64,000 nucleotides of DNA from a virus. Positions 43,433-63,375 of this stretch are shown here, in pieces. The stretch is taken from IMG/VR virus record IMGVR_UViG_3300025600_000001, positions 1 to 64,000 of that record. One strand, written 5' to 3'. A program made the position numbers and the translations under genes. Below the pieces are notes generated by a model, which was not told where the DNA came from, made no database searches, and saw only the letters and a list, made by a program, of their open reading frames with translations. The stretch's first letter is position 1; every line of letters starts with the position of its first letter.

Positions 43433-43455
43433 CAAAACACTAAAAATTTATAAAA

Positions 43456-43841
43456 ATGAAAAAATTAAAAGGAAAAACATTAGATGAACTTCTAGAAGAT
43501 ATTCAAGTACTAGAAATAGATGAAGAAGTATGTAGAATAAATTATACTCCTGGACTAATTGGATGGTATGGCGTAATAAATGATCATTGTATTATTGCTT
43601 ATTTTAGAAAAGAAAAGAATGCTCTTAGATTTAGATTAGATTACATTAATCAAATATTAAATAGTATATGAAAAGATATGTATTTGCTATAACGATTACA
43701 GGATTTGGAGAAACTCCTGATGAAGCATGGAAAGATGCTGTTGAAGCTACTAATCTTGAAGATGATCCTATACCTGAAGAGGATATATACGATGAGTATG
43801 AAATGGATGATGATGAAGAAGTAGAGGACTATAGGAATTAG
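43456..43841 (+). other. Two small ORFs (43456-43671 and acidic 43668-43841)
   Basis: ATGA-coupled short ORFs. Confidence 0.5.
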
Positions 43842-43920
43842 AGATCAACGACAATCTGAATTTGCAGATATGTGGATTCAAAGTGGAATGTTTGGTATAT
43901 TAAATCTATGTCCTAGTTGA
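43831..43920 (+). pseudogene. Orphaned 5' stub of the SF2 helicase gene
   Basis: IGIRDQRQSEFADMWIQSGMFGILNLCPS* aligns with MEDIRTRRQREFANLWLESNMMNIMNLCPR of 44763..45845. Confidence 0.85.
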
Positions 43921-43951
43921 TAATTAAATTGTAATTTTGTATATTTGTACT

Positions 43952-44776
43952 ATGGAAATAAATAAAAATTTAATTAGAGTTTCTGGTATCTATAAGATAG
44001 AGAATATAGAAACAAAAGAATGTTATATAGGGAGTACCTTAAATATTTACAATAGAGCACATTCCTATAAATGCTTAGGAAAACAAAATAAAATTCATAG
44101 TACAAATTTACAAAAAGCAATAAATAACTATGGAATAGATATTTTTACTTTAGAAGTTTTAGAAAAAGTATATTTTGAAGAAGGTGTTTTAAAAAGTGAA
44201 AAATTGAAAATTCTTCACGATAAAGAACAAATATATTCCGATAATACTAATCTAAAATATAATAAAAGAAAAAATATTAATAAAAATACTGGAATAACTC
44301 TATCAAAAGAAACCAAAGAAAAAGTATCTACAACTCTTAAACGAATTTTTAAAGATGGTACAAGAATAATAGGAAGAATTTATTCTCATAATATAAAAGT
44401 ATCTATGTTTACAATTACTGGAACTTTTATTAAAGATTTTCCTGGATTAGCCCATTGTGCAGAATATTTAAATGTATCACCCTCATCAATCAATTATGCG
44501 TTAAAAAGCAAAAGACATGTTATAAAAAATCATATTATATTGAAACTTCAAGATAAAGATGAAATTAAAAATTTTATAAATATTCCATTAAATAAAAATA
44601 CTAATGGAAAAGCTATAAAAATTCTAGATACATTAGACGATAGTATACTGGAATTTATAAATTGTAAAACTTGTGCAAATATTATAAAATGTAAAGTTGA
44701 TACAATAGTTATTGGTTATAAAAAAAATAGATTAATTAAAAAAAGATATAAAGTAATAACCTATGGAAGATATTAG
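43952..44776 (+). CDS. GIY-YIG homing endonuclease (likely start ATG 43952)
   Basis: SGIYKIENIETKECYIGS motif; own promoter TATATTTG at 43940-43947. Confidence 0.85.
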   Translation: MEINKNLIRVSGIYKIENIETKECYIGSTLNIYNRAHSYKCLGKQNKIHSTNLQKAINNYGIDIFTLEVLEKVYFEEGVLKSEKLKILHDKEQIYSDNTNLKYNKRKNINKNTGITLSKETKEKVSTTLKRIFKDGTRIIGRIYSHNIKVSMFTITGTFIKDFPGLAHCAEYLNVSPSSINYALKSKRHVIKNHIILKLQDKDEIKNFINIPLNKNTNGKAIKILDTLDDSILEFINCKTCANIIKCKVDTIVIGYKKNRLIKKRYKVITYGRY

Positions 44777-45845
44777 AACGAGAAGACAACGTGAGTTTGC
44801 TAATTTATGGTTAGAGTCTAATATGATGAATATCATGAATTTGTGTCCCAGATTTGGAAAAATTAGAGTTGCTATAAATATCCTTGAACAGTTAAATCCT
44901 CATTGTACAGTATTAATTACTTATCCTGACAATAAAATAAGACATTCTTGGGAAGAGGATTTTGTAAAAAGAGGATATAATAATCCTAATATAACATTTA
45001 CTACACATCTTTCTCTCAAGAAATATGTAGATAAGATATTTGATATTATCATAATAGATGAAATACATCTAATTTCCACTGCACAAATGGAAATCTGCAA
45101 AGAACTTTTTAAAGAAAATCATGTAATGTTGGGTCTTACAGGTACATTAGCATCAGATACTAAAAATTGGTTACTATCTGCTTTGCATTTACCAGTAGTA
45201 GCAAATTACTCTATCAGTCAAGCTATATCTGAAGGAGTAATATCAGACTATGATATTACAGTTATTAAAGTTCCTTTGGATACAACAACTCTACAGGTTT
45301 ATAAGAAGCAACGTAAAACTGAGAAACAACAATTTGATATGCTCTCTTACGTTATTAATAAACAACAACAAGAAGGAAGAGATACAATGTTTATGCGTTT
45401 AGCTAGAATGAGAATTATTCAAAACAGTTTAAGTAAAATAAATAAAACTAAAGAAATACTAAAACAGTATGAAAATAATAGAATATTGGTCTTTTGTGGT
45501 ATTACAGCAGTTGCTGATAGTTTGGATATACCTTCTTTTCATAGTAAGTCAACCAATAAAATGACTTTTCAAAATTTTACAGAAGGCAATATTAAGCATT
45601 TGGCAGTTGTCAAAATTGGTGCTACAGGAATAACCTATAAACCTTTAAATCAGATAATTATAAATTATTTTGATAGTAATGCAGAAGATTTAGCACAAAA
45701 ATTGAACAGAGCTATGTCTTTTGAATACGATAATCCAGAGAAGAAGGCTCATATAACAATCATATGTTCAACAGAATCTGTCGAGCTTTTGTGGTTGAAG
45801 AAGGCTTTAGAATTTTTTAGTCCAGAAAAAATTAAATATCTATAA
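44763..45845 (+). CDS. Superfamily 2 helicase (DExH)
   Basis: CPRFGK (motif I), IIIDEIH (II), GLTGT (III). Confidence 0.85.
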   Translation: MEDIRTRRQREFANLWLESNMMNIMNLCPRFGKIRVAINILEQLNPHCTVLITYPDNKIRHSWEEDFVKRGYNNPNITFTTHLSLKKYVDKIFDIIIIDEIHLISTAQMEICKELFKENHVMLGLTGTLASDTKNWLLSALHLPVVANYSISQAISEGVISDYDITVIKVPLDTTTLQVYKKQRKTEKQQFDMLSYVINKQQQEGRDTMFMRLARMRIIQNSLSKINKTKEILKQYENNRILVFCGITAVADSLDIPSFHSKSTNKMTFQNFTEGNIKHLAVVKIGATGITYKPLNQIIINYFDSNAEDLAQKLNRAMSFEYDNPEKKAHITIICSTESVELLWLKKALEFFSPEKIKYL

Positions 45846-46047
45846 TATGAAACAAGAAATTGCTGATATTAAAAAAGTATTAGAAGAATTAAATATTTCA
45901 GTAGAAAAAATCAAATCTATTACTATTAAATGGGAAAAGATTTTTCCAAATAAAGCTTTTCCAAGAATAAAAATTAAACTATTTAATGATTCTAACGAAA
46001 AAAATGAGTAACTTTAAAACAGAAATAATAAAAAAAATTAGAAAATT

Positions 46048-46878
46048 ATGGAGAAAGAAGATGTAATATTACCAGATGAAATTAGTAAAGTAGTTATATC
46101 AGCACCAAGAGATCTTGCTATAATTGGAATTCCTAAAAGTGGAAAAGGAACTATATTAGGAAATTTTACATTAACTCATAATGCTCTTGTACTAGATCTT
46201 GAAAAAGGAGGATATGAATATATTCCTGCTAGAAAAATGTCTACTTATACAGGACAGGAAACAAGTCAATGGGAAAGTTTTCAAAACTTTATTAAATATC
46301 GTAATCTTTTATTGGAAAATAAAGGAAAATATGAATATCTAATTATAGATGGATTATCCGATCTTGATAGTTTATCCGACCTCGGTGGAACTCTGTCTTA
46401 TATGAATGGAATTATAGGTAAGAATTTTAATAGACCTAAATTAGCAAATGGATTATATGGTGAAAAATATAAACCGACTGATCCAGAGTTTAAATCAGTA
46501 TTAACATTACCTGATGGGGCTGGTTATATGAGTACTCGAAATTGGTTTCTTCAACAAATTGAAATGTTTAGACAAATAGCACCATATAGAATTTATGCTG
46601 CTCATATTGCTGATAAATATATTAAAGATAATGGAAAAGAAGAAGTGATAGGTAGTGAAATTTCTCTTACTGGAAAATTAAAAACAATTTTTGCAAGTAG
46701 AGTGACTGCTTTAGCAAAATTGGTAGTAGATGAGAATGAACGTTATCTTAATTTTGATGTTCAAAATGATAGTATTGTTGCAGGAAGTAGATCTCCTAAA
46801 TTGAAAGGAAAGATACTAATTTCAAGACAAGAATCAGATGGAACTATAATAACCTTTTGGGATAATATTTATGGATAA
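46048..46878 (+). CDS. AAA_24 / Sak4-like P-loop ATPase
   Basis: GIPKSGKGT, LDLEKG, LIIDG and AAH motifs; lies upstream of the SSB-like gene. Confidence 0.75.
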   Translation: MEKEDVILPDEISKVVISAPRDLAIIGIPKSGKGTILGNFTLTHNALVLDLEKGGYEYIPARKMSTYTGQETSQWESFQNFIKYRNLLLENKGKYEYLIIDGLSDLDSLSDLGGTLSYMNGIIGKNFNRPKLANGLYGEKYKPTDPEFKSVLTLPDGAGYMSTRNWFLQQIEMFRQIAPYRIYAAHIADKYIKDNGKEEVIGSEISLTGKLKTIFASRVTALAKLVVDENERYLNFDVQNDSIVAGSRSPKLKGKILISRQESDGTIITFWDNIYG

Positions 46879-47530
46879 CACTTTTTGTATATACGTATTT
46901 TCTGATCAATGGGGTGTACCAAAATATGTTGGTAAAGCTAAAGATTTTGCAAAAAGAATGGATGAGCATCTAAATAGAGATAGATTTAGATATAGTTCTA
47001 CTTGGTTCTATAGATGGTTAAATAAACAAATTGCAAACGATATAGAATTCTTTATGGATATATTAGAGGAAGTTACTCAGGAAACTTGGATAGAAAGGGA
47101 AATCTATTGGATAAAACATATTAAAGATAATGGATACAGATTAACAAATATGACTAATGGTGGGGATGGCAACAATAATCAAATCCATACTAAAGAGAGT
47201 AGATTAAAAAGATCCAAAAGAATGATGGGACACGAGGTCTCTGAAGAAACAAGAAAACGTATATCAAAAGGTCTCACTGGTAAAGTGATATCTAAAGAAA
47301 CTAGAAAGAAGTTATCTAATCTTAATAAAGGAAAAATATGTTTAGAATCTACTAAACTAAAATTTTCAAAAGTAATAGATCAATATGATTTAGCTAAGAA
47401 TTTTATTCAAAGTTTTACTTCTCTAACTAATGCTGCAATCTTTTTAAATTGTAGAAAATCATCTTTGAGTAATGCTATGAAAAGAAAAATTAATGGTAGA
47501 TTTAAAAACTATTTATGGAAATATAAATAA
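46871..47530 (+). CDS. GIY-YIG homing endonuclease with NUMOD3/NUMOD1-like domains
   Basis: CIYVF...KYVGKA; REIYWI..LTNMTNGGDG; SEETRKRIS repeats; IDQYDL...WKYK. Confidence 0.85.
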   Translation: MDNTFCIYVFSDQWGVPKYVGKAKDFAKRMDEHLNRDRFRYSSTWFYRWLNKQIANDIEFFMDILEEVTQETWIEREIYWIKHIKDNGYRLTNMTNGGDGNNNQIHTKESRLKRSKRMMGHEVSEETRKRISKGLTGKVISKETRKKLSNLNKGKICLESTKLKFSKVIDQYDLAKNFIQSFTSLTNAAIFLNCRKSSLSNAMKRKINGRFKNYLWKYK

Positions 47531-47568
47531 AACAAGTAATTAATTAAAACAAGTAAAAATTAAAAGCT

Positions 47569-48450
47569 ATGGCAATTGGTGGAGAAAAACGTGAGCATAC
47601 TAGCTTACCAGATTATGTAAAACGCATAGGTCTTTTCGAGGCTAAAGTAATTGCAGTTAATCCTGCAGCAGATGAGTATAAAACTTTACTAGGATATGAT
47701 CTGAAAGAAGATAGTAAAGAATGTGATTATCTAAGTGTTAACGATGCTGGGAATACTATTCTTAGAATCAATATTTGGTTGGAAGATGTGAAAACATCTA
47801 ACAATGATCAACCAAGTAGATATAAGGTGACCTTTTTCCTGGAGAATAAGGAAAGAGAAAATAAGGATCTAACCAAGAAACAGTATATTAATGAACTTGG
47901 TAGTTGTACATGGGCAGACGATCCTAATAATCTTAAAGAATGGTTTACTGCTCGTGAATATCGTGTAGCATATAATGGAGAAGAAGATCTTTACAATTTT
48001 ATGCGTACATGGTTGTGTGAATTGGATTATAAACAAGATGTCACTGTTTTACAAATTCCGTGGAAATCTTTAATGAAAGGAAATGTAAAAGAAATTAAAG
48101 AACAAATTAATGGTGAATGGTGTGGTAATATTGGCGCATTGGCTACAATTAACACTAAAGAGAAAGATGGAGACATTAAAGAGTACCAATCCGTCTATAA
48201 TAAGGCATTTCTGCCTATATATGCCCTTAAAAACTTTAGATTGATAGATTATAGCAATCCGAAGATAATCGAGGCTATAAAGGCTAAAAAGCCTAAAGAT
48301 CAGAAAGCTCATGAAAAATTTGTTTTAAATGTAACAGGGGAGTTTGGGTGTCGCGATAGTTACCTCCTTAAAGATATTAAAGATTATAACAGCGAAGAAT
48401 TCCTAGTGGCAAGTAATAAGGTGATATCAGAGGAAGGAGACGACTATTAA
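47569..48450 (+). CDS. Putative single-stranded DNA-binding protein (crAss-like)
   Basis: KVIAVNP motif, acidic C-terminal tail (EEGDDY), position after the ATPase. Confidence 0.6.
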   Translation: MAIGGEKREHTSLPDYVKRIGLFEAKVIAVNPAADEYKTLLGYDLKEDSKECDYLSVNDAGNTILRINIWLEDVKTSNNDQPSRYKVTFFLENKERENKDLTKKQYINELGSCTWADDPNNLKEWFTAREYRVAYNGEEDLYNFMRTWLCELDYKQDVTVLQIPWKSLMKGNVKEIKEQINGEWCGNIGALATINTKEKDGDIKEYQSVYNKAFLPIYALKNFRLIDYSNPKIIEAIKAKKPKDQKAHEKFVLNVTGEFGCRDSYLLKDIKDYNSEEFLVASNKVISEEGDDY

Positions 48451-48471
48451 ATATTATGATTAATAGTTAAA

Positions 48472-48514
48472 GTTAAGGTGAATAGATTAATTCTTTTCAC
48501 CTTAATTTTTTTTT
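48472..48514 (+). terminator. Intrinsic terminator
   Basis: ttaaggtgaa...ttcaccttaa followed by T9. Confidence 0.75.
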
Positions 48515-48568
48515 CAAAATATAATACTTATTGTAGTATTATTCGTATCTTTATAGAAAATGTAAAAT

Positions 48569-52015: not shown

Positions 52016-52028
52016 AAATTAAATTAAA

Positions 52029-52118
52029 ATGTCAGACATTAAGACGTACAAAGTATCACAAGCAGCAATGCTAGCAGTGCTGCCACCAGAATCCACAAGA
52101 ACGTATAATTCTTCATAA
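52029..52118 (+). pseudogene. Orphaned 5' stub of the DUF932-like gene
   Basis: MSDIKTYKVSQAAMLAVLPPESTRTYNSS* aligns with MKESYSVSKAMLISTPIPESTRTYKSFS of 53124..53999. Confidence 0.85.
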
Positions 52119-52155
52119 ATTTTGAAATGTCATAGGAATTAGTTACATTTGGAAT

Positions 52156-53127
52156 ATGAAAAATATAACTATAAATTTTATATTAGCAAGAACTTCTGCT
52201 AATTATGAAGATATACATTGTACTGGTATATATAGAATATATCACATCATTAAACCATCTATTTTTTACATTGGAAGTGCTTCTTCTAATAAAAGATGGA
52301 GAGAGGGTTTTAAACAACGATGGGTAGAACATATCAAAGAACTTCGTAAAAACATTCATCATTCTCCATTCTTACAAAGAGTTATTAATTTATATGGAAT
52401 AGAAGGATTAAGATTTGAAATAATTGAAAAATGTGAATCTTCTATATGCATACGTAAAGAACAATTTTGGTTAGATTTTTATAAACCATTTAAAAATAAA
52501 GGTTATAATACTTGTAAAATTGCAGGAAGTTCTATGGGTTATAAATTTTCTGAAGATCAAATAAAAAATAGAAAAAAAATATTTCAATATGATTTAAAAG
52601 GTAAATTCATTGAAGAATATAAAAGTTTAACTGATGCAGCAAAACAAACAAATACTAGAATTAATGAAATCAAAGATTGTGCTAAAAAAAGAATACAATA
52701 TACGAAAGGACATATATGGAGATATGAAAAAGAAAGTGTAGATTCTATATTTCATATTAAGATTTTTAAGATAGCGTGCTACTTTGATGGACAATTTCAA
52801 TTTGTAGATTCTTTACAAAAAGTAGAAGAAAAAACAAAAGTCCATAAAAAGTTTATTTATAACTGTATTAATAAAAATCTAAATAAAACATCTAATAATT
52901 GGTTATTTAGAAAATACGATATTGAAAATTGTCCAGAAAAAATTGATTGTGTTACAGTATTAAGATATAAATATGAACTTATAGAAAATGAAAAATCTAT
53001 CATTTTTAATACGTTAATATTATTAACAAGTTATTTAAAAGTTCATAGAAAATATTTTGAAGAAAAAATGAAAGTAACAAATGAAATAGTTTTTAATAAT
53101 AAAATAATTAAAAAATTAATAAAATGA
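52156..53127 (+). CDS. GIY-YIG homing endonuclease with NUMOD1-like domain
   Basis: TGIYRIYHIIKPSIFYIGS motif; promoter TTTG(52121)-N19-TACATTTG(52144-52151). Confidence 0.85.
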   Translation: MKNITINFILARTSANYEDIHCTGIYRIYHIIKPSIFYIGSASSNKRWREGFKQRWVEHIKELRKNIHHSPFLQRVINLYGIEGLRFEIIEKCESSICIRKEQFWLDFYKPFKNKGYNTCKIAGSSMGYKFSEDQIKNRKKIFQYDLKGKFIEEYKSLTDAAKQTNTRINEIKDCAKKRIQYTKGHIWRYEKESVDSIFHIKIFKIACYFDGQFQFVDSLQKVEEKTKVHKKFIYNCINKNLNKTSNNWLFRKYDIENCPEKIDCVTVLRYKYELIENEKSIIFNTLILLTSYLKVHRKYFEEKMKVTNEIVFNNKIIKKLIK

Positions 53128-53999
53128 AAGAAAGTTATTCAGTTTCTAAAGCAATGTTAATAAGTACACCTATACCAGAGAGTACTCGTACTTATAAAAG
53201 TTTTTCTCACAAACAGTTAATAGATTTAACTCTTGAGGGTATTCACCATGCAGGATTTCAAGTGGGAAAAGAATTATATTCTTCTGCAAAAGATGGTCTT
53301 GTAGCTAATGGAAGATATACTATAGCAAATATAGCTGATTCAGAAATGCAATTACAAATTACATGGAGAAATAGTTATAATAAAAGTTTACCACTAACCT
53401 TTTCACTCGGTGCTATGGTGTTAGTATGTTCCAATGGAATGCAAAAATCTCAAGGAATGGGATCTTTTAAGAAAAAACATCAAGGACAAATTCAAAGTTT
53501 TACTCCACAAGCTATAGGCGAATACATCAAAGGAGCTGAAGAAGTATTTAAACAAATGCAAATAGAAAGAGAGCAAATGAAACAAGTCACACTCTCAAGA
53601 ACGCTGCAAGCAGAGATTATAGGAAAAATGTTTATAGAAGCAGAATTTATTAAGTCTACTCAATTGAATATTATCAAAAGAGAACTTGATAATCCTACAC
53701 ATGATTATGGAGATCCTAATAGTTTGTGGTCATTGTATAATTATACAACTTTTGCAATGCGTGAATTGCATCCATCTTTATATCTACAGGATCATATTGA
53801 TGCTCATTCATTCTTTGTCACTGAATCAGGAATCATAGTTAATACTCCTGAACCTATTACAATTCGTCCTGTAGAAGATAAGAGACAATTAAACTTGTTT
53901 GATGAACTTCTTAATCAAGAAACAGAAGAAGTCTTGGCTGAAGTGTATAATAGTGAAGAAGAAGAAGAAGAGGAAGAATGGGAACCAGAACAACTATAG
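53124..53999 (+). CDS. DUF932/DUF945-like protein
   Basis: WRNSYNKS...GAMVLVCSNGM...KKKH...SLWSLYN motifs. Confidence 0.75.
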   Translation: MKESYSVSKAMLISTPIPESTRTYKSFSHKQLIDLTLEGIHHAGFQVGKELYSSAKDGLVANGRYTIANIADSEMQLQITWRNSYNKSLPLTFSLGAMVLVCSNGMQKSQGMGSFKKKHQGQIQSFTPQAIGEYIKGAEEVFKQMQIEREQMKQVTLSRTLQAEIIGKMFIEAEFIKSTQLNIIKRELDNPTHDYGDPNSLWSLYNYTTFAMRELHPSLYLQDHIDAHSFFVTESGIIVNTPEPITIRPVEDKRQLNLFDELLNQETEEVLAEVYNSEEEEEEEEWEPEQL

Positions 54000-54220
54000 G
54001 TGCAAAACCTGCAATAGTAAAAGTTCCAGGAACTTTTATTAAGATTGGTGATTACAGAATAATAAAATCAAGTGTGAAGAGGTATCAACCAAGTAAAAAT
54101 GGATATATCAACATCTATTTTAACTCCTCAATAAATCATCCTGATTTTAAGAGTTTTCACTATACATCAACTAAGTTACAACAAGAAGTTTTAGACTATT
54201 TAGATTCAATTTATTTATGA
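53978..54220 (+). CDS. Hypothetical protein
   Basis: ORF track. Confidence 0.55.
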   Translation: MGTRTTIGAKPAIVKVPGTFIKIGDYRIIKSSVKRYQPSKNGYINIYFNSSINHPDFKSFHYTSTKLQQEVLDYLDSIYL

Positions 54221-54345
54221 ACAAAAGTAAAACAATACTATCAGAAGAGGCTTTTGAGCCTCTTTTTGGTAGTTGGTGGCCTAAGATTAACAAATTCTCT
54301 GTTATTTTATTTGTATATTCTACTTATTTAGTATATATTTGTTAG
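54217..54345 (+). pseudogene. Orphaned 5' stub of the uracil-DNA glycosylase gene
   Basis: MNKSKTILSEEAFEPLFGSWWPKI(N...) aligns with MNNLDWKKFEPLFGTWALKIK of 55343..56134; similarity ends near 54290. Confidence 0.85.
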
Positions 54346-54369
54346 ATTAATTTAATACAACATTACTAT

Positions 54370-55350
54370 ATGACATATTTTAAACTTACTCCAGAAATTC
54401 ATAAAAATATAGCAGATGAATATATTTCATCTATAACTACTCAACAAGATTTAGCAAAAAAATATAATGTTAGTACAGTTATGATTTCAAATATATTAAA
54501 AAAATTTAAAATTCCTACAGATCATCGAAGAGGATTTTATAATGTAGATATTAATTATTTTAAAATTATAGATACACCTAATAAATCATATTTTTTAGGT
54601 TTATTTCATGCCGATGGAAGTAACTCTGAGGAGCATAACTGTGTTAGAATTTCTTTACAGGAAAAGGATAAAGAAATATTAGAAAAATTAAAAAAAGATA
54701 TAAAATATTCAGGTCCTTTATATTATTTAAAAAAACAAGGAAATAGAAGTAATCAATTTTCATTAAATATTGTAGCAAAAGAATTATCACAAGATTTGGT
54801 AATTCTAGGTTATCCTAAGAATAAAACTTACAAAGTAGTATTTCCAGAATACTTAGAACAGTCATTAGTAAGACATTTTATTAGAGGATTGTTCGATGGA
54901 GATGGATGTATTCATGCTAAATATAAACATAGTTTAAGTATCGTTGGTACATGTAATACTTTGTTAGGAGTAAAAGATTATTTACAAGAAATATTAAATA
55001 TAAATTCTGTAATAGTAGAAAGTAAATCTAAAAATATATTTAGATTAAGTATATGTAAAAAGATAGATATATTCAATACATTATGTCATTTATATGAAAA
55101 TAGTGAATTGTATTTACAAAGAAAATATGACATCTTTCATCAAGTGTACATGATTCAGAAAGAACATTTATATTGGCAAATATACTGTAAAAATTTAAAA
55201 ACTAATGAAATTAATATTTTTAAAAATATGCAAGAAACTAAAGAATTTTTTGGATTAAAATCCTATGCAGCAATATCTTATTGTATCCATAAAAGTAAAA
55301 CTAAAATTTTTAGAAAAACGTATTATATAAATTTATTGAAAAATGAATAA
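54370..55350 (+). CDS. LAGLIDADG homing endonuclease
   Basis: YFLGLFHADG and FIRGLFDGDG motifs; promoter TTTG(54310)-N20-TATATTTG(54334-54341). Confidence 0.85.
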   Translation: MTYFKLTPEIHKNIADEYISSITTQQDLAKKYNVSTVMISNILKKFKIPTDHRRGFYNVDINYFKIIDTPNKSYFLGLFHADGSNSEEHNCVRISLQEKDKEILEKLKKDIKYSGPLYYLKKQGNRSNQFSLNIVAKELSQDLVILGYPKNKTYKVVFPEYLEQSLVRHFIRGLFDGDGCIHAKYKHSLSIVGTCNTLLGVKDYLQEILNINSVIVESKSKNIFRLSICKKIDIFNTLCHLYENSELYLQRKYDIFHQVYMIQKEHLYWQIYCKNLKTNEINIFKNMQETKEFFGLKSYAAISYCIHKSKTKIFRKTYYINLLKNE

Positions 55351-56134
55351 TTTAGATTGGAAGAAATTCGAACCACTTTTTGGTACATGGGCTTTAAAAA
55401 TAAAGCCTTTTTTTGACTTAGGAGGTTTTGATAAAATATATGAGTTTCTTAAAAAAGAGTCAAAAAGAGGTAAAGAAATCGCACCTATGTCATCTCTTGT
55501 ATTTAGAGCATTTCGAGAGACAGACATAAATACTCTTAAAGTAGTAATTGTTGGTTTAGCACCATATCATACCTTTTATAATGGATCGTCTATTGCGGAT
55601 GGTTTGTGTATGAGTTGTTCTATTACTAGTAGATTACAACCTAGTCTTTCTAATTTCTATAATGCTATAGAACGAGAACTTTATAATGGACTTAATTTAA
55701 ATATGTATAAAAATCCAGATCTTACCTATTTAGCCAGAGACGGAATTCTTCTATTGAACTATGCTCTCACCACTAGTAAAAATAAACCAGGGGATCATTG
55801 TGTTCTTTGGGAACCTTTTATGAAATTTCTATTTGAACAGGTGTTAGATACTATTGGAGCTCCTGTTATTTTCTTAGGACGTGAAGCAGCCAAACTAGAG
55901 AGATATACAATGCCTTTTAATTGGATATTTAAGTTATCTCATCCTGCCTCAGCAAGTTATCAAGGTATCGAATGGGATTCTGAAGGAACATTTAAAACTA
56001 TAAATAAGATTTTATGGGAGCGAAATAAAGAAACGATAAATTGGTTACAATTAGATAGTATAAACGAAAAGGAGATAAAAAATGAAGACAAAGTTAAAAA
56101 ACCAGGAAAACCTAAATTTAGAAGTTCAAATTAA
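55343..56134 (+). CDS. ung: Uracil-DNA glycosylase (family 1-like, divergent catalytic loop)
   Basis: KVVIVGLAPYH (canonical GQDPYH), ADGL, PSL.N, GILLLN and SHPAS motifs. Confidence 0.8.
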   Translation: MNNLDWKKFEPLFGTWALKIKPFFDLGGFDKIYEFLKKESKRGKEIAPMSSLVFRAFRETDINTLKVVIVGLAPYHTFYNGSSIADGLCMSCSITSRLQPSLSNFYNAIERELYNGLNLNMYKNPDLTYLARDGILLLNYALTTSKNKPGDHCVLWEPFMKFLFEQVLDTIGAPVIFLGREAAKLERYTMPFNWIFKLSHPASASYQGIEWDSEGTFKTINKILWERNKETINWLQLDSINEKEIKNEDKVKKPGKPKFRSSN

Positions 56135-56146
56135 AAAGAAATACTC

Positions 56147-58453: not shown

Positions 58454-58478
58454 ATATAAACATTAAAAATAAAAACTT

Positions 58479-59894
58479 ATGGATTTTTCATTAAATTGGT
58501 TTAAGAGTAAAAAGAAAGAAGAAAATGTACAGAAGATATATGTTCCTCAATCAACAACATCTTATGGTGTTGATCCTTTAGATCACAATGTAGAGTTTAT
58601 GCATGTGCCTTATAAGTCTATTAAGATGGTTAATGATGTAATTACTGTGGTGTTACTTGATGGAACAATTATTATCAAACCTTCTGCAGTAGAACTAGAT
58701 TTTATAAAAATTTCAAAAGCTACTACGATTGCTGAAATCTTAAACTTAGTAACTCTTCCCGAAATACTAGAAGAAAAACTTAAAGTTAAAGCTGAAGAAG
58801 AACGTAATATTGTTCTACATAAAGGAATCGAACTTCTAAAAGAAGTTAGTGATTTTAGAGTTGAAGATAATACTGTTTATATGGTAGGAACAAATAGAAG
58901 TGTTCCTGAACTCTTAGTTAATGAATTTATTGAAATTGTAGGAAGTTATGACTTTTCATCAATTTCTATGTCTATTAATGAGTATGTAGCAAAAAATGAA
59001 AAGTATCAAAGTTTAAAGAACTTCTTTCTTTGGGCATGTCTTAATCCAAGAGCTGAAGTAGCTAATGATCTATATGACTTTCTAAAAAGAAATAGTTTTA
59101 AGATCACTAAACAAGGATTCTTTGCAGCTCTTAGAAATGTTGTCACGCTTAATGATAATAGTGAAGAGTTTGATAACAATAGAGCACTTGTTGATTTTGT
59201 AAGTAATTCTTACAATAAGATTAAAGCTGTTTGGAAACAGAAACCTTCTAAATTTGATGTTTATAGAAATACTGATCATTTTGGAGAAAACTCTTTTTAT
59301 CTTTGGAAAATTGAAGAAACTCCAAATATTAAGAATAATGGAAACGAATGTATGGGTAATTTAGAAACTCTTTACAAACAGGATATGCCAGAGATGAAAG
59401 GTAATCGTTTCACTGATGATCACACAAAAACATTCGACATTCGTGTAGGAAAAGTTGTAAGTATGCCTATGAAAAAATGTAGTTGGTCGACAGCAGATTG
59501 CGATAAAGCAGGTTTACATTTTACTTCAGATCAGATTCACTATGTAGGATGTGGAGATACTTCTATGTTAGTACTAATCAATCCAATGAAGGTTGTAGGA
59601 ATAGGTACATCTAAAGGAAGATGTTATGAATATCTTCCAATTATGACAGTTCCTCGTGAAGAAGCAACACAACTTCTACATGATTTAGATTTTGATACTC
59701 TTGAATTAGATGAAGACTATGTCATTCATGAATTAGAAAGTCTTAGTGAAAAAGTCAAGAGTGGTTTCATAGCAGAAACTACTAAATATAGTTTCAATCT
59801 TCCAGCAACATCTACAGAAGAAATTGAGACTATTATAAAATCTTTATCATTAATGAAAGAACTCATTTCTAAACGAGTAAGTGTAATTAAATAA
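58479..59894 (+). CDS. rIIB-like protein
   Basis: Follows the rIIA-like gene; LYDFL...ITKQGFF...VGKVVSMP...C.KAGLH...VLINP motifs. Confidence 0.7.
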   Translation: MDFSLNWFKSKKKEENVQKIYVPQSTTSYGVDPLDHNVEFMHVPYKSIKMVNDVITVVLLDGTIIIKPSAVELDFIKISKATTIAEILNLVTLPEILEEKLKVKAEEERNIVLHKGIELLKEVSDFRVEDNTVYMVGTNRSVPELLVNEFIEIVGSYDFSSISMSINEYVAKNEKYQSLKNFFLWACLNPRAEVANDLYDFLKRNSFKITKQGFFAALRNVVTLNDNSEEFDNNRALVDFVSNSYNKIKAVWKQKPSKFDVYRNTDHFGENSFYLWKIEETPNIKNNGNECMGNLETLYKQDMPEMKGNRFTDDHTKTFDIRVGKVVSMPMKKCSWSTADCDKAGLHFTSDQIHYVGCGDTSMLVLINPMKVVGIGTSKGRCYEYLPIMTVPREEATQLLHDLDFDTLELDEDYVIHELESLSEKVKSGFIAETTKYSFNLPATSTEEIETIIKSLSLMKELISKRVSVIK

Positions 59895-59899
59895 TTCAT

Positions 59900-59938
59900 G
59901 TGGTGTATTCCTTTAATTTAGGGATACATCACTAATTT
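59900..59938 (+). terminator. Hairpin, probable terminator
   Basis: gtggtgtattcct...agggatacatcac inverted repeat. Confidence 0.55.
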
Positions 59939-59944
59939 TAATTT

Positions 59945-60346
59945 ATGAAAATAAAAAAAGTAGTTATAAAAAAAGTAAAACCTCGTAATGGAGGAACAAT
60001 GACTAATAGTCAGTATTTTTCTAAAATCAGATCAATACTTAGAAATGGTTTTAGATACTATAGACCTATGCAAGATGCTCTTAATTTAGTAAGTAGACCT
60101 TCTCAGTCTTTAAATAAAAAACTTAAAAAAGAATATCAGTGCTTTCATTGTAAAAAATGGTTTAAACGAGATGATGTAGAAATTGATCACATTGAAGAAT
60201 GTGGTAAACTAAATTGTTATGACGATATTGTACCATTTATTCAAAGACTTACCAGAGAAGAAGTTAGTGCATATCAAGTATTATGTAAATCGTGTCATAG
60301 TATAAAAACTGAAAAGTATAAACAACTTAAAAATGAAAGACTATGA
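59945..60346 (+). CDS. HNH-family nuclease (Zn-binding)
   Basis: YQCFHCKKWF....VEIDHI...YQVLCKSCH. Confidence 0.75.
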   Translation: MKIKKVVIKKVKPRNGGTMTNSQYFSKIRSILRNGFRYYRPMQDALNLVSRPSQSLNKKLKKEYQCFHCKKWFKRDDVEIDHIEECGKLNCYDDIVPFIQRLTREEVSAYQVLCKSCHSIKTEKYKQLKNERL

Positions 60347-60778
60347 TAATTCGTAGAAAAAAAGATTTATGGAAAGGATATCTTGTAGATGGTAGAGTTT
60401 ATCAAACTGAGACACATACAAGAAGAGACGATTTACTTGCATGTATTGCACGTAAAGAAAGTGTTATGTGGATATTAAATGATGGACGGAAAATGACTCT
60501 TACCTTTGATCAATTAAAGGATGAAGTTGAAGATATAGGTACTCCACAGAAAAGTATAAAGAATACTTCACCTTATAGTTTATGGTGTTATACATTTATA
60601 GAAGATAACTAAAATGAAACAGAAATTATTAAAATCGACAATTAGTGTACTAGAAGCCTTAAAAGAAGATGCGAATATGGCATTGAATGGAACTTGGGAT
60701 TGTACTGAACCAGGTTTCAGAGCCCAAATTAGAGCAATTAATGGAGTTTTATCAGAACTAAAAGCAAAATTAAAATGA
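60343..60778 (+). other. Two small ORFs (60343-60612 and 60614-60778)
   Basis: Packed, co-oriented. Confidence 0.5.
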
Positions 60779-60843
60779 TAGAAGGAATTAAAAAAATAAA
60801 TTCTGAAAGTGATTATCGTAAGATACAACTTGATTCAAGTTAA
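60775..60843 (+). pseudogene. Orphaned 5' stub of the PD-(D/E)XK nuclease gene
   Basis: MIEGIKKINSESDYRKIQLDSS* aligns with MIKGINKNIDEKSYRTICLDSASS of 61691..62749. Confidence 0.8.
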
Positions 60844-60911
60844 AAAAGAGAAAAGTTATAGGATTATATATTTAATTTTTGTATATTTATATATAACTAA
60901 GTTATAATAAG

Positions 60912-61685
60912 ATGATTGGAATCTATAAAATAACAAGTCCTTCGAATAAAGTTTATATAGGACAAAGTTGGAATTTGATTAAAAGAGAGAAAGATTATAA
61001 GTCTTTAGCTAATATAATTAGACAAAGAAAAATATATAATTCTATGAAAAAATATGGAGTAGATAAACATATTTTTGAAATACTTCATATTCTTTCAGAT
61101 ACTACTATACAAAAAGAATTAGATTATTGGGAAATATATTATTGGAAGTATTTTATATCTCAAGGATTTGAAATGCTTAATATTAAAGAACCAGGAAAAG
61201 GAGGAAGATTAGATATTGAAACTAAAGAAAAGATATCTAAATCAAATAAGGGAAGAATTAGAAGTGAAGAAGTAATGAGTAAAATTAAGAATTTAGATAG
61301 ATATAATCTTCCTATTCTAATGTTAAATTTAAATGGAAAAATCATAAGAGAGTTTAGAAATATAAATTCATGTTCACGAGAATTACATGTTAGTTCTTCT
61401 AATATAAAATCAGTAATGAATGGTAAAACTAAAACATGTTTATCTCATATTTTTATAAAAAAAGTAGATTATGATGAATCTAAATTTACACAAATAATAG
61501 TTCCTGGTGGATGTACTGAGGTAAATCAATATGATTTAGATAATAATTTTATTAAAAGTTTTTTAAGTTTTAAAAATATTAGATTAGAATTAGAATTAAA
61601 AATAGGATGTGATCCTAATATTATAAGAGCTTGCAAATCTGAAAATAGAATAGCTTATGGTTTTAAATGGAAATATAAAAATTAA
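60912..61685 (+). CDS. GIY-YIG homing endonuclease with NUMOD3/NUMOD1-like domains
   Basis: IGIYKITSPSNKVYIGQS; ETKEKISKSNKG; VNQYDL...AYGFKWKY. Confidence 0.87.
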   Translation: MIGIYKITSPSNKVYIGQSWNLIKREKDYKSLANIIRQRKIYNSMKKYGVDKHIFEILHILSDTTIQKELDYWEIYYWKYFISQGFEMLNIKEPGKGGRLDIETKEKISKSNKGRIRSEEVMSKIKNLDRYNLPILMLNLNGKIIREFRNINSCSRELHVSSSNIKSVMNGKTKTCLSHIFIKKVDYDESKFTQIIVPGGCTEVNQYDLDNNFIKSFLSFKNIRLELELKIGCDPNIIRACKSENRIAYGFKWKYKN

Positions 61686-61690
61686 TAAAT

Positions 61691-62749
61691 ATGATTAAGG
61701 GAATAAATAAAAACATAGATGAAAAAAGTTATCGAACAATTTGTCTTGACAGTGCTAGTTCTTTAAAAGATTTTTCACTAGATAGAAAATTATATTTTAA
61801 ACGTTACGTTTTGTATGAGGTAGTAGAAGAGAAGTTTAATCAATCAATATTGATGGGAAATCTTGTTGATTGTATGTTATTAACGCCTAATTTATTTGAT
61901 AATAAATTTTATATGTCAGCATGTGCATCTTCGCCTTCTGGATTGATGTTAGAATTTGTAGAAGCTCTTTATAGAGCAACTAGAGATGCTATGGGAGAGG
62001 ACAAAATCTTAACAAAGAATTTTGAAGAACTGTCAAAGATTGCATATTTAGCCAGTGGCTTCAAAATTAAATATGAAGCAGTGATAGGTAAGTTTATGGA
62101 TTCTGACAATCAAATTTACTATGACGAATTAGTAAAGGTGAGAACTAATAATCTACTAGTAGTTACAATTGATCAGGTAAATAAAGCTGAACAAATTGTT
62201 GAAGAATTAAAAGTTAATTTTGTAACTAAAGAAATTCTTACACGTATAAATAGTCAAAGATGGACTGTTCTAGTACAACATCAGGTAGAAAACTATTTGG
62301 TTGATAATCATCCTTTTAAGAGTATGATGGATTTATGTATTATAGACCATCAAGAAAAGATTATTCAGATTTATGACTTGAAATGTGTATGGACCGTTGA
62401 AGGCTTTTTTTCTGACTACTATCTTTTTCGTAGAGCATACATTCAGGGATATTTATATTGGAGAGCTGCTATGTATATGAGTAATGATATTAATAGTGAA
62501 TTCTACGAATATACTGTTCTACCTCCAAGATTTATTGTATGTGATAGTATTAACTATTTTAATCCCTTAATATATACAATGTCAAATGATGATCTAAAGG
62601 ATGCGTATGAAGGATTTGAACACAAAGGACATAAATATCCTGGTGTAAAAGAGATAATTTTAAATCTTGATTGGAATATAAATAATAATATCTGGGGGAT
62701 GAGTAGAGAAAACTATATTAACAATGGTATAGTAAATATTAAAGATTAG
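61691..62749 (+). CDS. PD-(D/E)XK exonuclease (RecE/DUF3799-like)
   Basis: SASSLK N-terminus, GNLVD..L, KSMMD...IYDLK...Y.Q.Y.Y motifs. Confidence 0.7.
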   Translation: MIKGINKNIDEKSYRTICLDSASSLKDFSLDRKLYFKRYVLYEVVEEKFNQSILMGNLVDCMLLTPNLFDNKFYMSACASSPSGLMLEFVEALYRATRDAMGEDKILTKNFEELSKIAYLASGFKIKYEAVIGKFMDSDNQIYYDELVKVRTNNLLVVTIDQVNKAEQIVEELKVNFVTKEILTRINSQRWTVLVQHQVENYLVDNHPFKSMMDLCIIDHQEKIIQIYDLKCVWTVEGFFSDYYLFRRAYIQGYLYWRAAMYMSNDINSEFYEYTVLPPRFIVCDSINYFNPLIYTMSNDDLKDAYEGFEHKGHKYPGVKEIILNLDWNINNNIWGMSRENYINNGIVNIKD

Positions 62750-62759
62750 AAACTATAAA

Positions 62760-63314: not shown

Positions 63315-63375
63315 TTGTTGTTGTAATCTGATTTAATTGGGAGTAATATCTATCAGAATCAGATTCATTTTTTGT

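What the first reader, a model, noticed from the sequence alone, without database searches (positions are those of the whole stretch)
43831..61760. Recurrent 'N-terminus-replacing' homing endonuclease cassettes: gene invasion without intron or intein
Seen directly at four loci (SF2 helicase, DUF932-like, UDG, PD-(D/E)XK nuclease) with the same layout: a dead 5' stub of the target gene (about 22-30 codons), a Bacteroidota-type promoter, a homing endonuclease ORF, then a diverged second copy of the same N-terminus fused in frame to the rest of the target, overlapping or abutting the endonuclease stop. Stub and replacement are clearly homologous as protein but heavily diverged as DNA, so these are not simple target-site duplications. 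The intergenic gaps leave no room for a group I intron core, and the endonuclease is not in frame with the target, so it is not an intein. Two unrelated nuclease families (GIY-YIG x3, LAGLIDADG x1) share the layout. Inference: a mobile unit of promoter + endonuclease + new gene start inserts near the 5' end of a conserved gene, rescues it, removes its own cut site by recoding, and puts the host gene under its promoter. Established background is T4-type free-standing seg/mob endonucleases (intronless homing) and integrative elements that restore target genes with a carried fragment. I cannot tell whether this exact strategy has been described.
Basis: partly seen in the sequence, partly recalled or inferred. 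Interest (0 to 1): 0.92.

Follow-up and report, generated by a model that had tools for sequence, protein, structure and literature searches.

The report
Endonuclease cassettes that replace gene starts
In this uncultured phage, four selfish DNA-cutting-enzyme genes each sit just inside the front of a replication gene and bring a substitute gene start, leaving the old start as a dead stub, which is a phage, front-end version of a rare kind of homing element known from yeasts and fungal mitochondria.

Summary
Each has a dead 5' stub of 22-29 codons, a homing endonuclease gene (three GIY-YIG-like, one LAGLIDADG), then a diverged second copy of the same N-terminus fused to the intact gene. Each stub/replacement match beat 2000 of 2000 shuffles. 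No group I or II intron signal appears at E<=10, and the frames exclude inteins.

Two cassettes recur in other IMG/VR phage contigs with related endonucleases and the same junction codon:
- DUF932: L049 and L050.
- Helicase: L060, L061, L062 and L064.

For helicase and DUF932 the stub resembles cassette-free relatives. The DUF932 gene is chimeric: its first ~105 codons have a different history from its 3' part and from the stub. All five endonuclease-linked helicase alleles are altered at the GILNLCP codons beside the junction, and all four full-length stubs keep them.

The best reading is a homing element that restores its target by replacing the gene's end. It mirrors yeast WHO elements and fungal mitochondrial mORFs.

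Weak points:
- The exonuclease locus does not fit "stub = native".
- UDG is inconclusive.
- Promoter evidence is thin.
- There is no enzymology and no RNA data.

This scan has noted the same layout before in at least 21 other genomes. I found no description of it in phages in print.

The parts
43825..43917 (+). Dead 5' stub of the SF2 helicase gene. It has no ATG, the aligned part is 43837-43914, and stops follow at 43918-43923.
   Evidence: Score 92 against the replacement, 0/2000 shuffles reach it. At least as close as the replacement to all 13 cassette-free relatives, 6-19 vs 5-15 of 28-29 residues (closer in 13 of 13); 11 of the 13 relatives carry GILNLCP, which the stub keeps. The last 30 nt match 12 relatives at a mean of 23.2/30.
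43918..43951 (+). Spacer with promoter-like boxes: TAATTTTG at 43932-43939, TATATTTG at 43940-43947, and a sigma-70-like TTGATA-17-TATATT at 43917-43945.
   Evidence: These are consensus matches only. The boxes end 4-12 nt before the ATG, so promoter function is uncertain.
43952..44776 (+). GIY-YIG / NUMOD1 homing endonuclease gene.
   Evidence: Pfam GIY-YIG 24 bits, above the cut-off. Relatives at 41-43% identity lie directly upstream of helicase genes in L060-L064.
44763..45845 (+). Intact SF2 helicase gene. Its replacement 5' end (44763 to about 44851) overlaps the endonuclease stop by 14 nt.
   Evidence: Pfam Helicase_C and ResIII. The replacement differs from the family consensus at the GILNLCP codons.
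52029..52118 (+). Dead 5' stub of the DUF932 gene: ATG, 29 codons, stop.
   Evidence: Score 62, 0/2000 shuffles. Its best match is the N-terminus of L002, 16/29 residues and 53/87 nt.
52119..52155 (+). Spacer with TACATTTG at 52144-52151. It is homologous to the spacer of the L050 cassette.
52156..53127 (+). GIY-YIG-like / NUMOD1 homing endonuclease gene.
   Evidence: Pfam NUMOD1. PHROG 'homing endonuclease' and 'with GIY-YIG motif'. 53% identical to the endonuclease at the same site in L049/L050.
53124..53999 (+). Intact DUF932 gene. Codons 1 to about 105 (53124 to about 53438) have a different history from the rest.
   Evidence: Pfam DUF932. L002 ranks 28th and 33rd of 36 in codons 1-27 and 28-105, but 2nd and 1st in 106-225 and 226-291. 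The partition trees disagree.
54217..54345 (+). Dead 5' stub of the UDG gene. Homology runs to about 54297, then the frame runs into the cassette and stops.
   Evidence: Score 55, 0/2000 shuffles. The ATG overlaps the stop of the upstream 80-aa ORF.
54310..54341 (+). Full Bacteroidota-type promoter-like motif, TTTG-N20-TATATTTG.
   Evidence: One of 2 matches in the window, against 0.39 expected.
54370..55350 (+). LAGLIDADG homing endonuclease gene.
   Evidence: Pfam LAGLIDADG_3, 48.8 bits, two stretches. Protein relatives at 50-64% identity exist (P0008-P0013), but their context could not be fetched.
55343..56134 (+). Intact UDG-superfamily gene with a replacement 5' end that overlaps the endonuclease stop by 8 nt.
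   Evidence: Pfam UDG, 37 bits. Of 44 related loci holding both genes, 37 have DUF932 and UDG 60 nt or less apart, and 0 of 44 have an endonuclease-like ORF between them.
60775..60843 (+). Dead 5' stub of the exonuclease-like gene: an ATG overlapping the upstream stop, 22 codons, then a stop.
   Evidence: Score 51, 0/2000 shuffles. In L002 the intact gene starts at the same overlapped position.
60912..61685 (+). GIY-YIG-like / NUMOD1 homing endonuclease gene.
   Evidence: Pfam NUMOD1 32 bits; GIY-YIG 17.3 bits, below the cut-off. BLASTP to the endonuclease at 43952 gives E 3.7e-11.
61691..62749 (+). Intact exonuclease-like gene, starting 5 nt after the endonuclease stop.
   Evidence: PHROG exonuclease VIII, E 5.9e-5. 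No Pfam family. 70% identical to the cassette-free L002 homolog.

Best explanation
These are end-replacing homing elements. Each unit is a free-standing homing endonuclease gene followed by an endonuclease-resistant allelic copy of the first 22-30 or more codons of its target gene, with the target's old 5' end lying upstream as a stub.

Proposed cycle (inferred, not shown):
1. During co-infection the endonuclease cuts a cassette-free allele near codon 22-30, in a conserved motif (PRFGK of the helicase, TRTYKP of DUF932).
2. The left end of the break, which is the recipient's own first codons, pairs with the donor's stub.
3. The right end pairs with the donor's gene body.
4. Repair copies the endonuclease gene plus the donor's 5' end and a variable stretch of the gene body.
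5. The recipient's own first codons are left behind as a fresh stub that ends at the junction.
6. The gene stays functional without RNA or protein splicing, because it now starts at the carried ATG, which abuts or overlaps the endonuclease stop.
7. Immunity comes from sequence differences in the carried copy.

Shown here: the layout, its recurrence at the same codon with related enzymes in other phages, native-like stubs at two loci, a chimeric DUF932 gene, and altered target codons in every endonuclease-linked helicase allele.

Inferred: cleavage, the cut position, the role of the stub as a homology arm, and promoter use.
For: 1. Layout and significance at four loci.

2. Specificity. Of 117 ORFs scanned genome-wide, only these four combine an upstream N-terminal duplicate with an endonuclease between the copies. 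No C-terminal counterpart was found.

3. Not intron or intein. No Rfam hit other than one tRNA at gathering threshold. None of the 6 hits at E<=10 in 43500-62900 is an intron. The endonucleases have their own ATG and stop, and stop codons separate all three frames.

4. Empty sites. 0 of 44 related loci have an endonuclease-like ORF between DUF932 and UDG, and 1 of 43 (L036, no stub) has one between primase and DUF932. The relatives' N-termini align with the stubs and run on through the junction.

5. Recurrence.
- L049/L050 carry stub, endonuclease (53% identical) and DUF932, with the stub ending within a codon or two of the window's.
- L060, L061 and L062 carry a full helicase stub, an endonuclease (41-43% identical to the window's) and, except in L061 whose contig ends first, the helicase, with the junction in the same Arg-Phe codons. 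L064 has a truncated stub.
- Stub scores were 82, 75 and 58 against shuffle maxima of 44, 43 and 40 in L060, L062 and L064.

6. The stubs are fresh and lineage-specific.
- The window's DUF932 stub is closest to L002 (16/29). Its replacement matches L002 at 8/27.
- The L050 stub is 72% identical as DNA to cassette-free relatives, as good as or better than its functional gene body (67% mean, 77% best), although the two endonucleases have diverged to 53%.

7. Chimerism. L002 ranks 28/36 and 33/36 in DUF932 codons 1-105, and 2/36 and 1/36 beyond. In the 5' tree the window groups with L027/L043 (SH-aLRT 94). In the 3' tree it groups with L002/L003/L005/L050 (93).

8. Target-site change. All four full-length stubs (window, L060, L061, L062) and 11 of 13 cassette-free helicases encode GILNLCP. 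All 5 endonuclease-linked replacement alleles (4 distinct) differ there. Both endonuclease-linked DUF932 alleles lack the Pro codon kept by 33 of 35 cassette-free relatives.

9. Not an assembly artefact. Single contigs of two runs bridge stub, endonuclease and gene start at the DUF932 and UDG loci with 0 differences. The layout also appears in contigs from other samples.

10. The same mechanism is established in mirror image for WHO elements (PMC7282813, abstract and Discussion read).
Against: - Exonuclease locus: the replacement N-terminus is closer to the cassette-free L002 gene (14/22) than the stub is (11/22).
- UDG locus: the stub and the replacement are each other's best match (12/23), and neither is clearly native.
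- DUF932: the last 30 nt of the stub are no closer to 32 relatives than the replacement is (means 15.8 vs 16.8; stub better in 6, equal in 7, worse in 19).
- No recurrence was found for the LAGLIDADG/UDG cassette.
- Relatives of the exonuclease-linked endonuclease (50% and 38% identity) sit in other contexts with no stub.
- The layout is rare among relatives. Of 58 loci and 423 ORFs scanned at that stage, only L050 was flagged, and the reversed-peptide control reached the threshold twice.
- The stubs are only 66-90 nt long, which is short for a homology arm between diverged phages.
- There is no cleavage data, no RNA data and no near-identical cassette-free sibling genome.
Confidence: 0.72

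Rival explanations
1. These are one-off repair scars. A free-standing endonuclease from a diverged co-infecting phage was captured at a break by homologous recombination on the gene side and illegitimate joining on the upstream side. The stub is a passive by-product, the unit does not home as such, and later spread is vertical.
For: The layout is rare among sampled relatives. The UDG and exonuclease cassettes were not found elsewhere. The stubs are short. The helicase stub has lost its ATG, and L064 has a truncated stub, which shows decay.
Against: The same junction codon, with related endonucleases, occurs in diverged phages whose stubs differ and resemble different cassette-free lineages. 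A neutral stub inherited since the endonucleases diverged to 41-53% identity should no longer be 72% identical as DNA to functional relatives.
Confidence: 0.15
2. An in-place tandem duplication of the gene's 5' end came first. An endonuclease gene was then inserted between the copies, and both copies diverged where they lie.
For: The stub and the replacement are each other's best match at the UDG locus (12/23).
Against: At the helicase it is the functional copy, not the dead one, that departs from the family consensus. The DUF932 5' part and 3' part have different nearest relatives, and the divergent tract extends beyond the duplicated codons. Four separate duplications of the same size class, each later hit by an endonuclease, is unparsimonious.
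Confidence: 0.05
3. These are degenerate or unrecognised self-splicing introns, or inteins. The stub is a true first exon joined to the body by RNA or protein splicing, and the second N-terminus is incidental.
For: Close relatives of the helicase-linked enzyme are labelled 'group I intron endonuclease' by one source (P0004, P0005). That is an automatic name. Group I introns with GIY-YIG or LAGLIDADG ORFs are common in phages (established knowledge).
Against: There is no Rfam intron hit at E<=10. Only 34-72 nt lie between stub and endonuclease, and from -14 to +5 nt between endonuclease and gene start. Splicing stub to body would duplicate the N-terminal residues. Stops break every frame. No Hint or intein domain was found.
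Confidence: 0.03
4. This is an assembly chimera of two co-occurring strains.
For: A low-depth related contig (depth about 10-13, against about 550 and 280) diverges from the window exactly at 54221, the start of the UDG stub.
Against: High-depth contigs from two runs span the junctions without a difference. Those runs may be the source samples. Independent contigs from other metagenomes show the same layout.
Confidence: 0.01

Closest known systems
WHO elements of Torulaspora/Lachancea yeasts (Coughlan et al. 2020, PMC7282813; Osborne et al. 2026 preprint, 10.64898/2026.08.13.744650)
   Same: The endonuclease gene lies beside the intact host gene, not inside it. A duplicated fragment of the host gene's end lies on the far side of the endonuclease and is proposed as the second homology arm. 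Homing replaces the gene's end with a resistant allelic variant. No splicing is needed. The host gene becomes chimeric. The authors call this a third category of homing element (Discussion read; passages).
   Different: WHO elements replace the 3' end of one nuclear gene (FBA1) and pile up in clusters. Their enzymes are intein-derived LAGLIDADG proteins fused to a zinc finger. Here the 5' end is replaced, so the element must also supply translation and probably transcription start signals. The enzymes are phage-type GIY-YIG/NUMOD and LAGLIDADG_3 proteins, and four different genes of one phage are hit. The 2026 preprint never uses the word 'phage' in its main text (0 occurrences). It names bacteriophages only as common hosts of homing elements and calls the category 'considerably more rare'.
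Mobile endonuclease ORFs (mORFs) of fungal mitochondria that create gene hybrids. Glomus atp6, atp9, cox2 and nad3 (Beaudet et al. 2013, PMC3630166). Allomyces macrogynus atp6 (Paquin et al. 1994, known to me only as cited there).
   Same: An inserted foreign gene terminus, then a LAGLIDADG or GIY-YIG ORF, then the native terminus left as a relic. The native relic is closer to the sister species than the inserted copy is. Two nuclease families share the layout (passages read).
   Different: It is the C-terminus that is replaced. The endonuclease ORF is often in phase with the host gene. The genomes are organellar. Divergence between the copies is lower (64-81% nt) than here (49-59%).
MobA element of T4-like phages: mobA plus the gene 60 bypass cassette (Bonocora et al. 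2011, as summarised in bioRxiv 10.1101/2022.08.31.505936).
   Same: It is a phage homing endonuclease inserted inside an ORF with neither intron nor intein. The element carries a short region homologous to the deleted target stretch, containing the nick site, and this protects the recipient (passages read).
   Different: MobA splits the topoisomerase gene into two functional genes in mid-ORF, deletes 55-75 nt and needs a 50-nt translational bypass. There is no dead stub and no whole replacement of a gene end.
T4-type free-standing seg/mob endonucleases (intronless homing). Review PMC2988022 was seen only in a search listing; the details are recalled.
   Same: Free-standing GIY-YIG or HNH genes between genes. 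They cut a conserved neighbouring gene in endonuclease-free phages and spread by co-conversion of flanking markers.
   Different: As I recall them, they lie in intergenic positions and leave no duplicated fragment of the target. The other 4 of the 8 GIY-YIG/LAGLIDADG genes in this window, and L036, look like that ordinary type.

Membership tests
End-replacing ('third category', WHO-like) homing elements, by mechanism | The endonuclease gene lies outside the intact host ORF, with its own start and stop. | tested here: met
   All four endonuclease ORFs have their own ATG and stop, and lie out of frame with, or separated by stops from, both the stub and the gene.
End-replacing ('third category', WHO-like) homing elements, by mechanism | A duplicated fragment of the host gene's end lies on the far side of the endonuclease gene. 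| tested here: met
   Four stubs, each with 0/2000 shuffles reaching the observed score. Also seen in L050, L060, L061, L062 and L064.
End-replacing ('third category', WHO-like) homing elements, by mechanism | The host gene is chimeric: the replaced end has a different history from the rest. | tested here: met
   Met for DUF932 only. UDG and the exonuclease show no signal. The helicase was not tested by tree.
End-replacing ('third category', WHO-like) homing elements, by mechanism | Resistance comes from allelic differences at the cleavage site in the carried copy. | tested here: inconclusive
   Helicase: all 5 endonuclease-linked alleles differ at GILNLCP, against 11/13 cassette-free relatives and 4/4 full-length stubs that keep it. 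DNA identity of the last 30 nt to 12 relatives is 23.2 vs 17.4 of 30. DUF932 shows no DNA signal (15.8 vs 16.8), although the Pro codon is lost in both linked alleles. The cleavage site itself is unknown.
End-replacing ('third category', WHO-like) homing elements, by mechanism | The endonuclease cleaves element-free alleles and triggers gene conversion. | not testable with these tools
   This needs enzyme assays or co-infection crosses.
WHO/HO/VDE protein family, by descent | An intein-derived LAGLIDADG endonuclease with a zinc finger. | tested here: not met
   Three enzymes are GIY-YIG/NUMOD1 type. The fourth hits LAGLIDADG_3 with no Hint or zinc-finger family. The element works like a WHO element but is not a member of that family.
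Fungal mitochondrial mORF gene hybrids | An inserted C-terminus, then the endonuclease ORF, then the native C-terminus downstream. | tested here: not met
   The polarity is reversed. The C-terminal scan of 117 ORFs gave nothing convincing beside an endonuclease (control maximum 44; the top hits are low-complexity or overlapping ORFs).
Group I / group II intron with an endonuclease ORF | A ribozyme core flanks the ORF, and the exons join to give one reading frame. | tested here: not met
   No Rfam intron family at gathering threshold or at E<=10. The flanks are 34-72 nt on one side, and from -14 to +5 nt on the other.
Intein | An in-frame insertion with Hint splicing blocks. | tested here: not met
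   Stop codons lie between stub, endonuclease and gene. There is no Hint domain.
GIY-YIG homing endonucleases | A GIY-YIG catalytic domain plus a NUMOD-type DNA-binding module. | tested here: met
   43952: Pfam above the cut-off, plus NUMOD1. 60912: GIY-YIG 17.3 bits, below the cut-off of 22.6, but NUMOD1 at 32 bits and BLASTP E 3.7e-11 to 43952. 52156: NUMOD1, PHROG 'GIY-YIG motif' and BLASTP E 1e-8 to the GIY-YIG gene at 17112. Membership is firm for the first and probable for the other two.
LAGLIDADG homing endonucleases | Two LAGLIDADG domains. | tested here: met
   PF14528, 48.8 bits, two stretches.

The most novel reading that the evidence does not exclude
Splicing-free, end-replacing homing elements, so far regarded as a rare yeast and organelle curiosity, may be a common third way for homing endonucleases of several families to invade coding sequence in phages. 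By entering at the 5' end they would also take over the start signals of essential replication genes. They would repeatedly rewrite the conserved motifs they target, driving chimeric evolution of helicase, DUF932, UDG and exonuclease genes. Four such elements would be active in, or recently acquired by, this one genome.
Probability: 0.55. Interest if true: 0.8.

Novelty: new variant of a known kind. Interest (0 to 1): 0.7.

Why it matters
Homing endonucleases are thought to enter coding sequence only under cover of a self-splicing intron or intein, or else to stay between genes.

This genome shows a third solution, used four times by two unrelated nuclease families. The element cuts inside the gene, keeps the gene alive by bringing a spare, resistant copy of its start, and leaves the old start as a homology arm.

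- It extends to phages, and to gene 5' ends, a class of element described so far for one yeast gene and a few mitochondrial genes.
- It explains short 'hypothetical' ORFs upstream of endonuclease genes.
- It predicts where these enzymes cut.
- It gives a mechanism for mosaic N-termini and altered conserved motifs in phage replication proteins.
- It matters for annotation. The stubs are mis-called genes, and automatic names such as 'group I intron endonuclease' mislead.
- It offers a natural design for self-restoring gene drives in phage engineering.

Tried and rejected
Relatives in annotated phage records:
- Megablast of 43400-63400 found only an unrelated 185-nt match.
- tblastn with DUF932 found nothing.
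- The LAGLIDADG protein gave only matches at 32% identity or less, to intron-type or free-standing enzymes.

Viral-contig scans:
- UDG, the LAGLIDADG enzyme and the window's helicase-linked enzyme found no relatives.
- The exonuclease gene gave one locus.
- A metagenome scan with the LAGLIDADG enzyme found none.

Context of relatives:
- The recurrence of the UDG cassette therefore remains untested.

RNA evidence:
- No RNA holder is listed for 51800-56200. Only three DNA runs were found, two peat and one soil, and two of them may be the source samples.
- Laid contigs cannot show splicing or transcript starts.
- A low-depth contig that leaves the window at 54221 and touches it again at 55808 (30 letters, what lies between is unknown) could be a cassette-free or different-cassette relative. 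It could not be read.

Other checks:
- The C-terminal duplication scan found nothing convincing.
- The sigma-70 and terminator scans were at chance level (129 found vs 134 expected; 4 vs 3.9).
- TAnnTTTG is not enriched in the window (86 vs 99).
- Another first-stage note claims a third case at an HNH-type gene near 114619 of the genome. I found only 46 nt between the upstream 321-aa ORF and that gene. No N-terminal duplicate of the downstream 1893-aa ORF appeared among the 25 best scores, all 34 or higher. That claim is not confirmed.

Literature:
- Eight searches turned up no phage description of a stub / endonuclease / replacement-start layout.
- PMC10448857 was checked by term search only, 9 passages, with no such layout.
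- The library lacks most subscription journals, and I opened no supplements. The supplements of the MobA preprint and of PMC3630166 might hold relevant cases.

Full report
**What the window is.** The window is the first 64 kb of a 117,568-bp IMG/VR virus record with direct terminal repeats. It is about 28% G+C. Region 43.4-63.3 kb is a replication module on the + strand:
- SF2 helicase
- Sak4-like annealing protein
- primase
- DUF932 protein
- UDG-superfamily protein
- rIIA-like and rIIB-like proteins
- an HNH protein
- an exonuclease-VIII-like protein

The only cultured relatives of the helicase are Flavobacterium phages at 27-28% identity. A Bacteroidota host is therefore plausible, but Crassvirales membership is not shown. 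DNA of this stretch is held by two peat metagenome runs, which may be its source, and in small part by one soil run.

At each of four loci a short frame upstream of a homing endonuclease gene encodes a peptide homologous to the N-terminus of the gene that follows the endonuclease.
- Local alignment scores were 92 (helicase), 62 (DUF932), 55 (UDG) and 51 (exonuclease-like). The maxima of 2000 shuffles each were 41-46, and 0 of 2000 reached the observed score in any case.
- Residue identities are 15/26, 12/24, 11/20 and 12/22. DNA identities are 59%, 49%, 52% and 58%. About half to three quarters of the conserved residues use different codons.
- Stub stop to endonuclease ATG is 34, 40, about 72 and 71 nt.
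- The endonuclease stop overlaps the target ATG by 14, 4 and 8 nt, or precedes it by 5 nt.
- Pfam and PHROGs support the enzyme and target families, with the caveats given under membership.

**Specificity.** I scanned all 117 ATG-ORFs of 80 aa or more in the whole genome, comparing each ORF's first 40 residues with the 2.5 kb upstream.
- Reversed-peptide controls reached at most 41. Eight ORFs exceeded that.
- Four are the reported loci. The other four are two pairs of full-length paralogous structural genes and two weak matches inside other genes, none with an endonuclease between the copies.
- The mirror scan, C-termini against downstream DNA, gave nothing convincing.
- The window holds eight GIY-YIG or LAGLIDADG genes and one HNH gene. 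Four of the eight have the stub layout. The other four look like ordinary free-standing genes.

**Not intron, intein or artefact.**
- Rfam finds only a tRNA at gathering threshold. None of the six chance-level hits at E<=10 across 43500-62900 is an intron.
- The flanks are too short for a ribozyme core.
- Stop codons separate stub, endonuclease and gene. No Hint domain is present.
- High-depth contigs from two runs cover 51800-53849 and 53829-55837 without a difference. They bridge both the DUF932 and the UDG triplets.
- The layout recurs in contigs from other samples (see "Recurrence elsewhere" below).

**Empty sites.** A scan of viral contigs with DUF932 returned 46 related loci at 49-62% identity with conserved synteny.
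- Of 44 loci that hold both DUF932 and UDG, 37 have them 60 nt or less apart, and none has an endonuclease-like ORF between them.
- Of 43 with primase and DUF932, one (L036) has a LAGLIDADG gene between them, without a stub.
- The relatives' N-termini align with the stubs and continue without a break.
- The helicase stub matches L008 at 27 of its last 30 nt up to CCT AG, where the relative goes on into the PRFGK codons.
- The DUF932 stub ends in the TRTYKP motif.

**Recurrence elsewhere.**
- *DUF932 cassette.* The DUF932-linked enzyme has a 53%-identical relative in L049 and L050, which come from two samples. In L050 that relative lies between a 25-codon DUF932 stub and an intact DUF932 gene. 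L049 shows the same stub and endonuclease, but its contig ends before the DUF932 gene. The stub ends within a codon or two of the window's, and the spacers are homologous.
- *Helicase cassette.* Through P0005, the helicase-linked enzyme has relatives at 41-43% identity that lie directly upstream of helicase genes in L060, L062, L063 and L064. In L061 the contig ends after the endonuclease gene.
- L060, L061 and L062 have a full stub ending in the same Arg-Phe codons. L064 has a truncated stub. L063 is cut 144 nt upstream.
- Stub scores were 82, 75 and 58, against shuffle maxima of 44, 43 and 40.
- *The other two cassettes.* No relative was found for the LAGLIDADG/UDG cassette in viral or metagenome contigs.
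- Relatives of the exonuclease-linked enzyme lie in other contexts, with no stub.

**Which copy is native?**
- *Helicase.* The stub is closer than the replacement to all 13 cassette-free relatives (6-19 vs 5-15 of 28-29 residues). Over the last 30 nt it is closer to 11 of 12, with one tie (means 23.2 vs 17.4).
- *DUF932.* The stub's best match is L002 (16/29 residues, 61% nt), while the replacement matches L002 at 8/27.
- *L050.* Its stub is 72% identical as DNA to cassette-free relatives. That is as good as or better than its own functional gene body (67% mean, 77% best), although the two endonucleases have diverged to 53%. The stubs are therefore young and lineage-specific.
- *UDG.* The stub and the replacement are each other's best match (12/23), so the test is uninformative.
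- *Exonuclease gene.* The replacement (14/22) is closer to L002 than the stub is (11/22), which goes against the simple rule.

**Chimerism.**
- In DUF932, L002 ranks 28th and 33rd of 36 relatives over codons 1-27 and 28-105. It ranks 2nd and 1st over codons 106-225 and 226-291.
- Quick maximum-likelihood trees place the window with L027/L043 for codons 1-105 (SH-aLRT 94), with L002 elsewhere (96). For the rest of the gene the window falls in a group with L002, L003, L005 and L050 (93), and L002 is nearest by path. The branches are long and the support moderate.
- The imported tract therefore extends well beyond the duplicated codons, as a gene-conversion tract would.
- In L050 the whole DUF932 gene is nearest L003/L005, whereas the stub and the neighbouring UDG are nearest the L016/L019/L025 group.

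**Target-site change.**
- All four full-length helicase stubs (window, L060, L061, L062) and 11 of 13 cassette-free relatives encode GILNLCP just before the junction. All five endonuclease-linked replacement alleles, four of them distinct, differ there.
- Both endonuclease-linked DUF932 alleles have Ser or Ala where 33 of 35 cassette-free relatives have Pro.
- By DNA identity, however, the DUF932 replacement is not more divergent than the stub.

**Mechanism.** These facts fit the model worked out for yeast WHO elements. In that model a duplicated fragment of the host gene serves as the second homology arm. Homing replaces the gene's end with a resistant allele, and the gene becomes chimeric (PMC7282813, abstract and Discussion). 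Here the polarity is reversed.
- The recipient's own first codons pair with the donor's stub and remain as the new stub.
- The endonuclease gene and the donor's 5' end are copied in.
- Cleavage, the cut position, the role of the stub and promoter use are all inferred.
- Promoter evidence is weak. A TAnnTTTG box lies in three of four spacers, but it is not enriched in the window (86 vs 99 expected). In two spacers it ends only 4 nt before the ATG. A full -33/-7 motif occurs only at the UDG cassette.

**Comparison with what is known.**
- Fungal mitochondrial mORFs replace C-termini in the same manner and involve both LAGLIDADG and GIY-YIG enzymes (PMC3630166, passages).
- The T4 MobA element carries a short homologous replacement of its target but splits the gene and needs translational bypass (preprint 10.1101/2022.08.31.505936, passages).
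- A 2026 preprint still calls the WHO category 'considerably more rare'. It mentions bacteriophages only in passing, as common hosts of homing elements.
- Eight literature searches found no phage description of this layout.
- This scan's own notes record the same layout in at least 21 other genomes. Those notes gave me the WHO and MobA leads, which I then checked in the papers.

**Verdict.** This is a new variant, 5'-end-replacing and in phages, of a known kind of homing element. My confidence in the mechanism is 0.72, and I score interest at 0.7.

Noticed in passing
window 46871-47530, 48569-49387, 29904-30875 (+) and 17112-17966 (-): Four further GIY-YIG or LAGLIDADG genes without any stub. 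With the HNH gene at 59945-60346, the window carries nine endonuclease genes. Relatives also have a GIY-YIG gene upstream of the 47569 homolog (L003) or after the helicase (L020, L035).
   Followed up: partly
L031 6160-7392: The rIIA-like gene homolog appears interrupted. A 125-aa N-terminal piece (71% identical to the window's) is followed by a LAGLIDADG ORF. This could be an intron, a split gene or another cassette.
   Followed up: no
L064 2428-2500: The helicase stub is truncated after 15 codons, and the left part of the spacer is missing relative to L060/L062. This is a decayed form of the same cassette.
   Followed up: partly
window 54004-54221 and 55808: A low-depth contig in both peat runs (depth 10-13, against about 550 and 280) is about 90% identical over 54004-54221. 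It leaves the window exactly at the start of the UDG stub. In one run it touches the window again at 55808. It may be a sibling strain with an empty or different site.
   Followed up: no
genome G000 113933-117370 (-), outside the window: Three small ORFs (161, 150 and 228 aa) lie between and after structural-looking ORFs of 246 and 321 aa, upstream of an 1893-aa ORF. I did not classify them.
   Followed up: partly
genome G000 70698-73060 (-) and 78918-80797 (-), outside the window: Two pairs of neighbouring genes share homologous N-terminal domains (scores 80 and 57): 294-aa/257-aa and 78-aa/543-aa. The larger genes carry Ser/Thr/Gly-rich tracts. These are paralogs, not stubs.
   Followed up: partly
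L012, L014, L015, L019, L021, L023, L028, L029, L031, L033-L035, L038, L039, L046, L047 (about 3850-4000): Many relatives have a conserved 145-148-nt gap between primase and DUF932, where others have the genes abutting. I did not examine its content.
   Followed up: no
L002 DUF932 (codon after TY-R) and L016: Two cassette-free relatives have Ala instead of the otherwise conserved Pro at the DUF932 junction motif, like the endonuclease-linked alleles. They may be resistant alleles or former hosts of the cassette.
   Followed up: no
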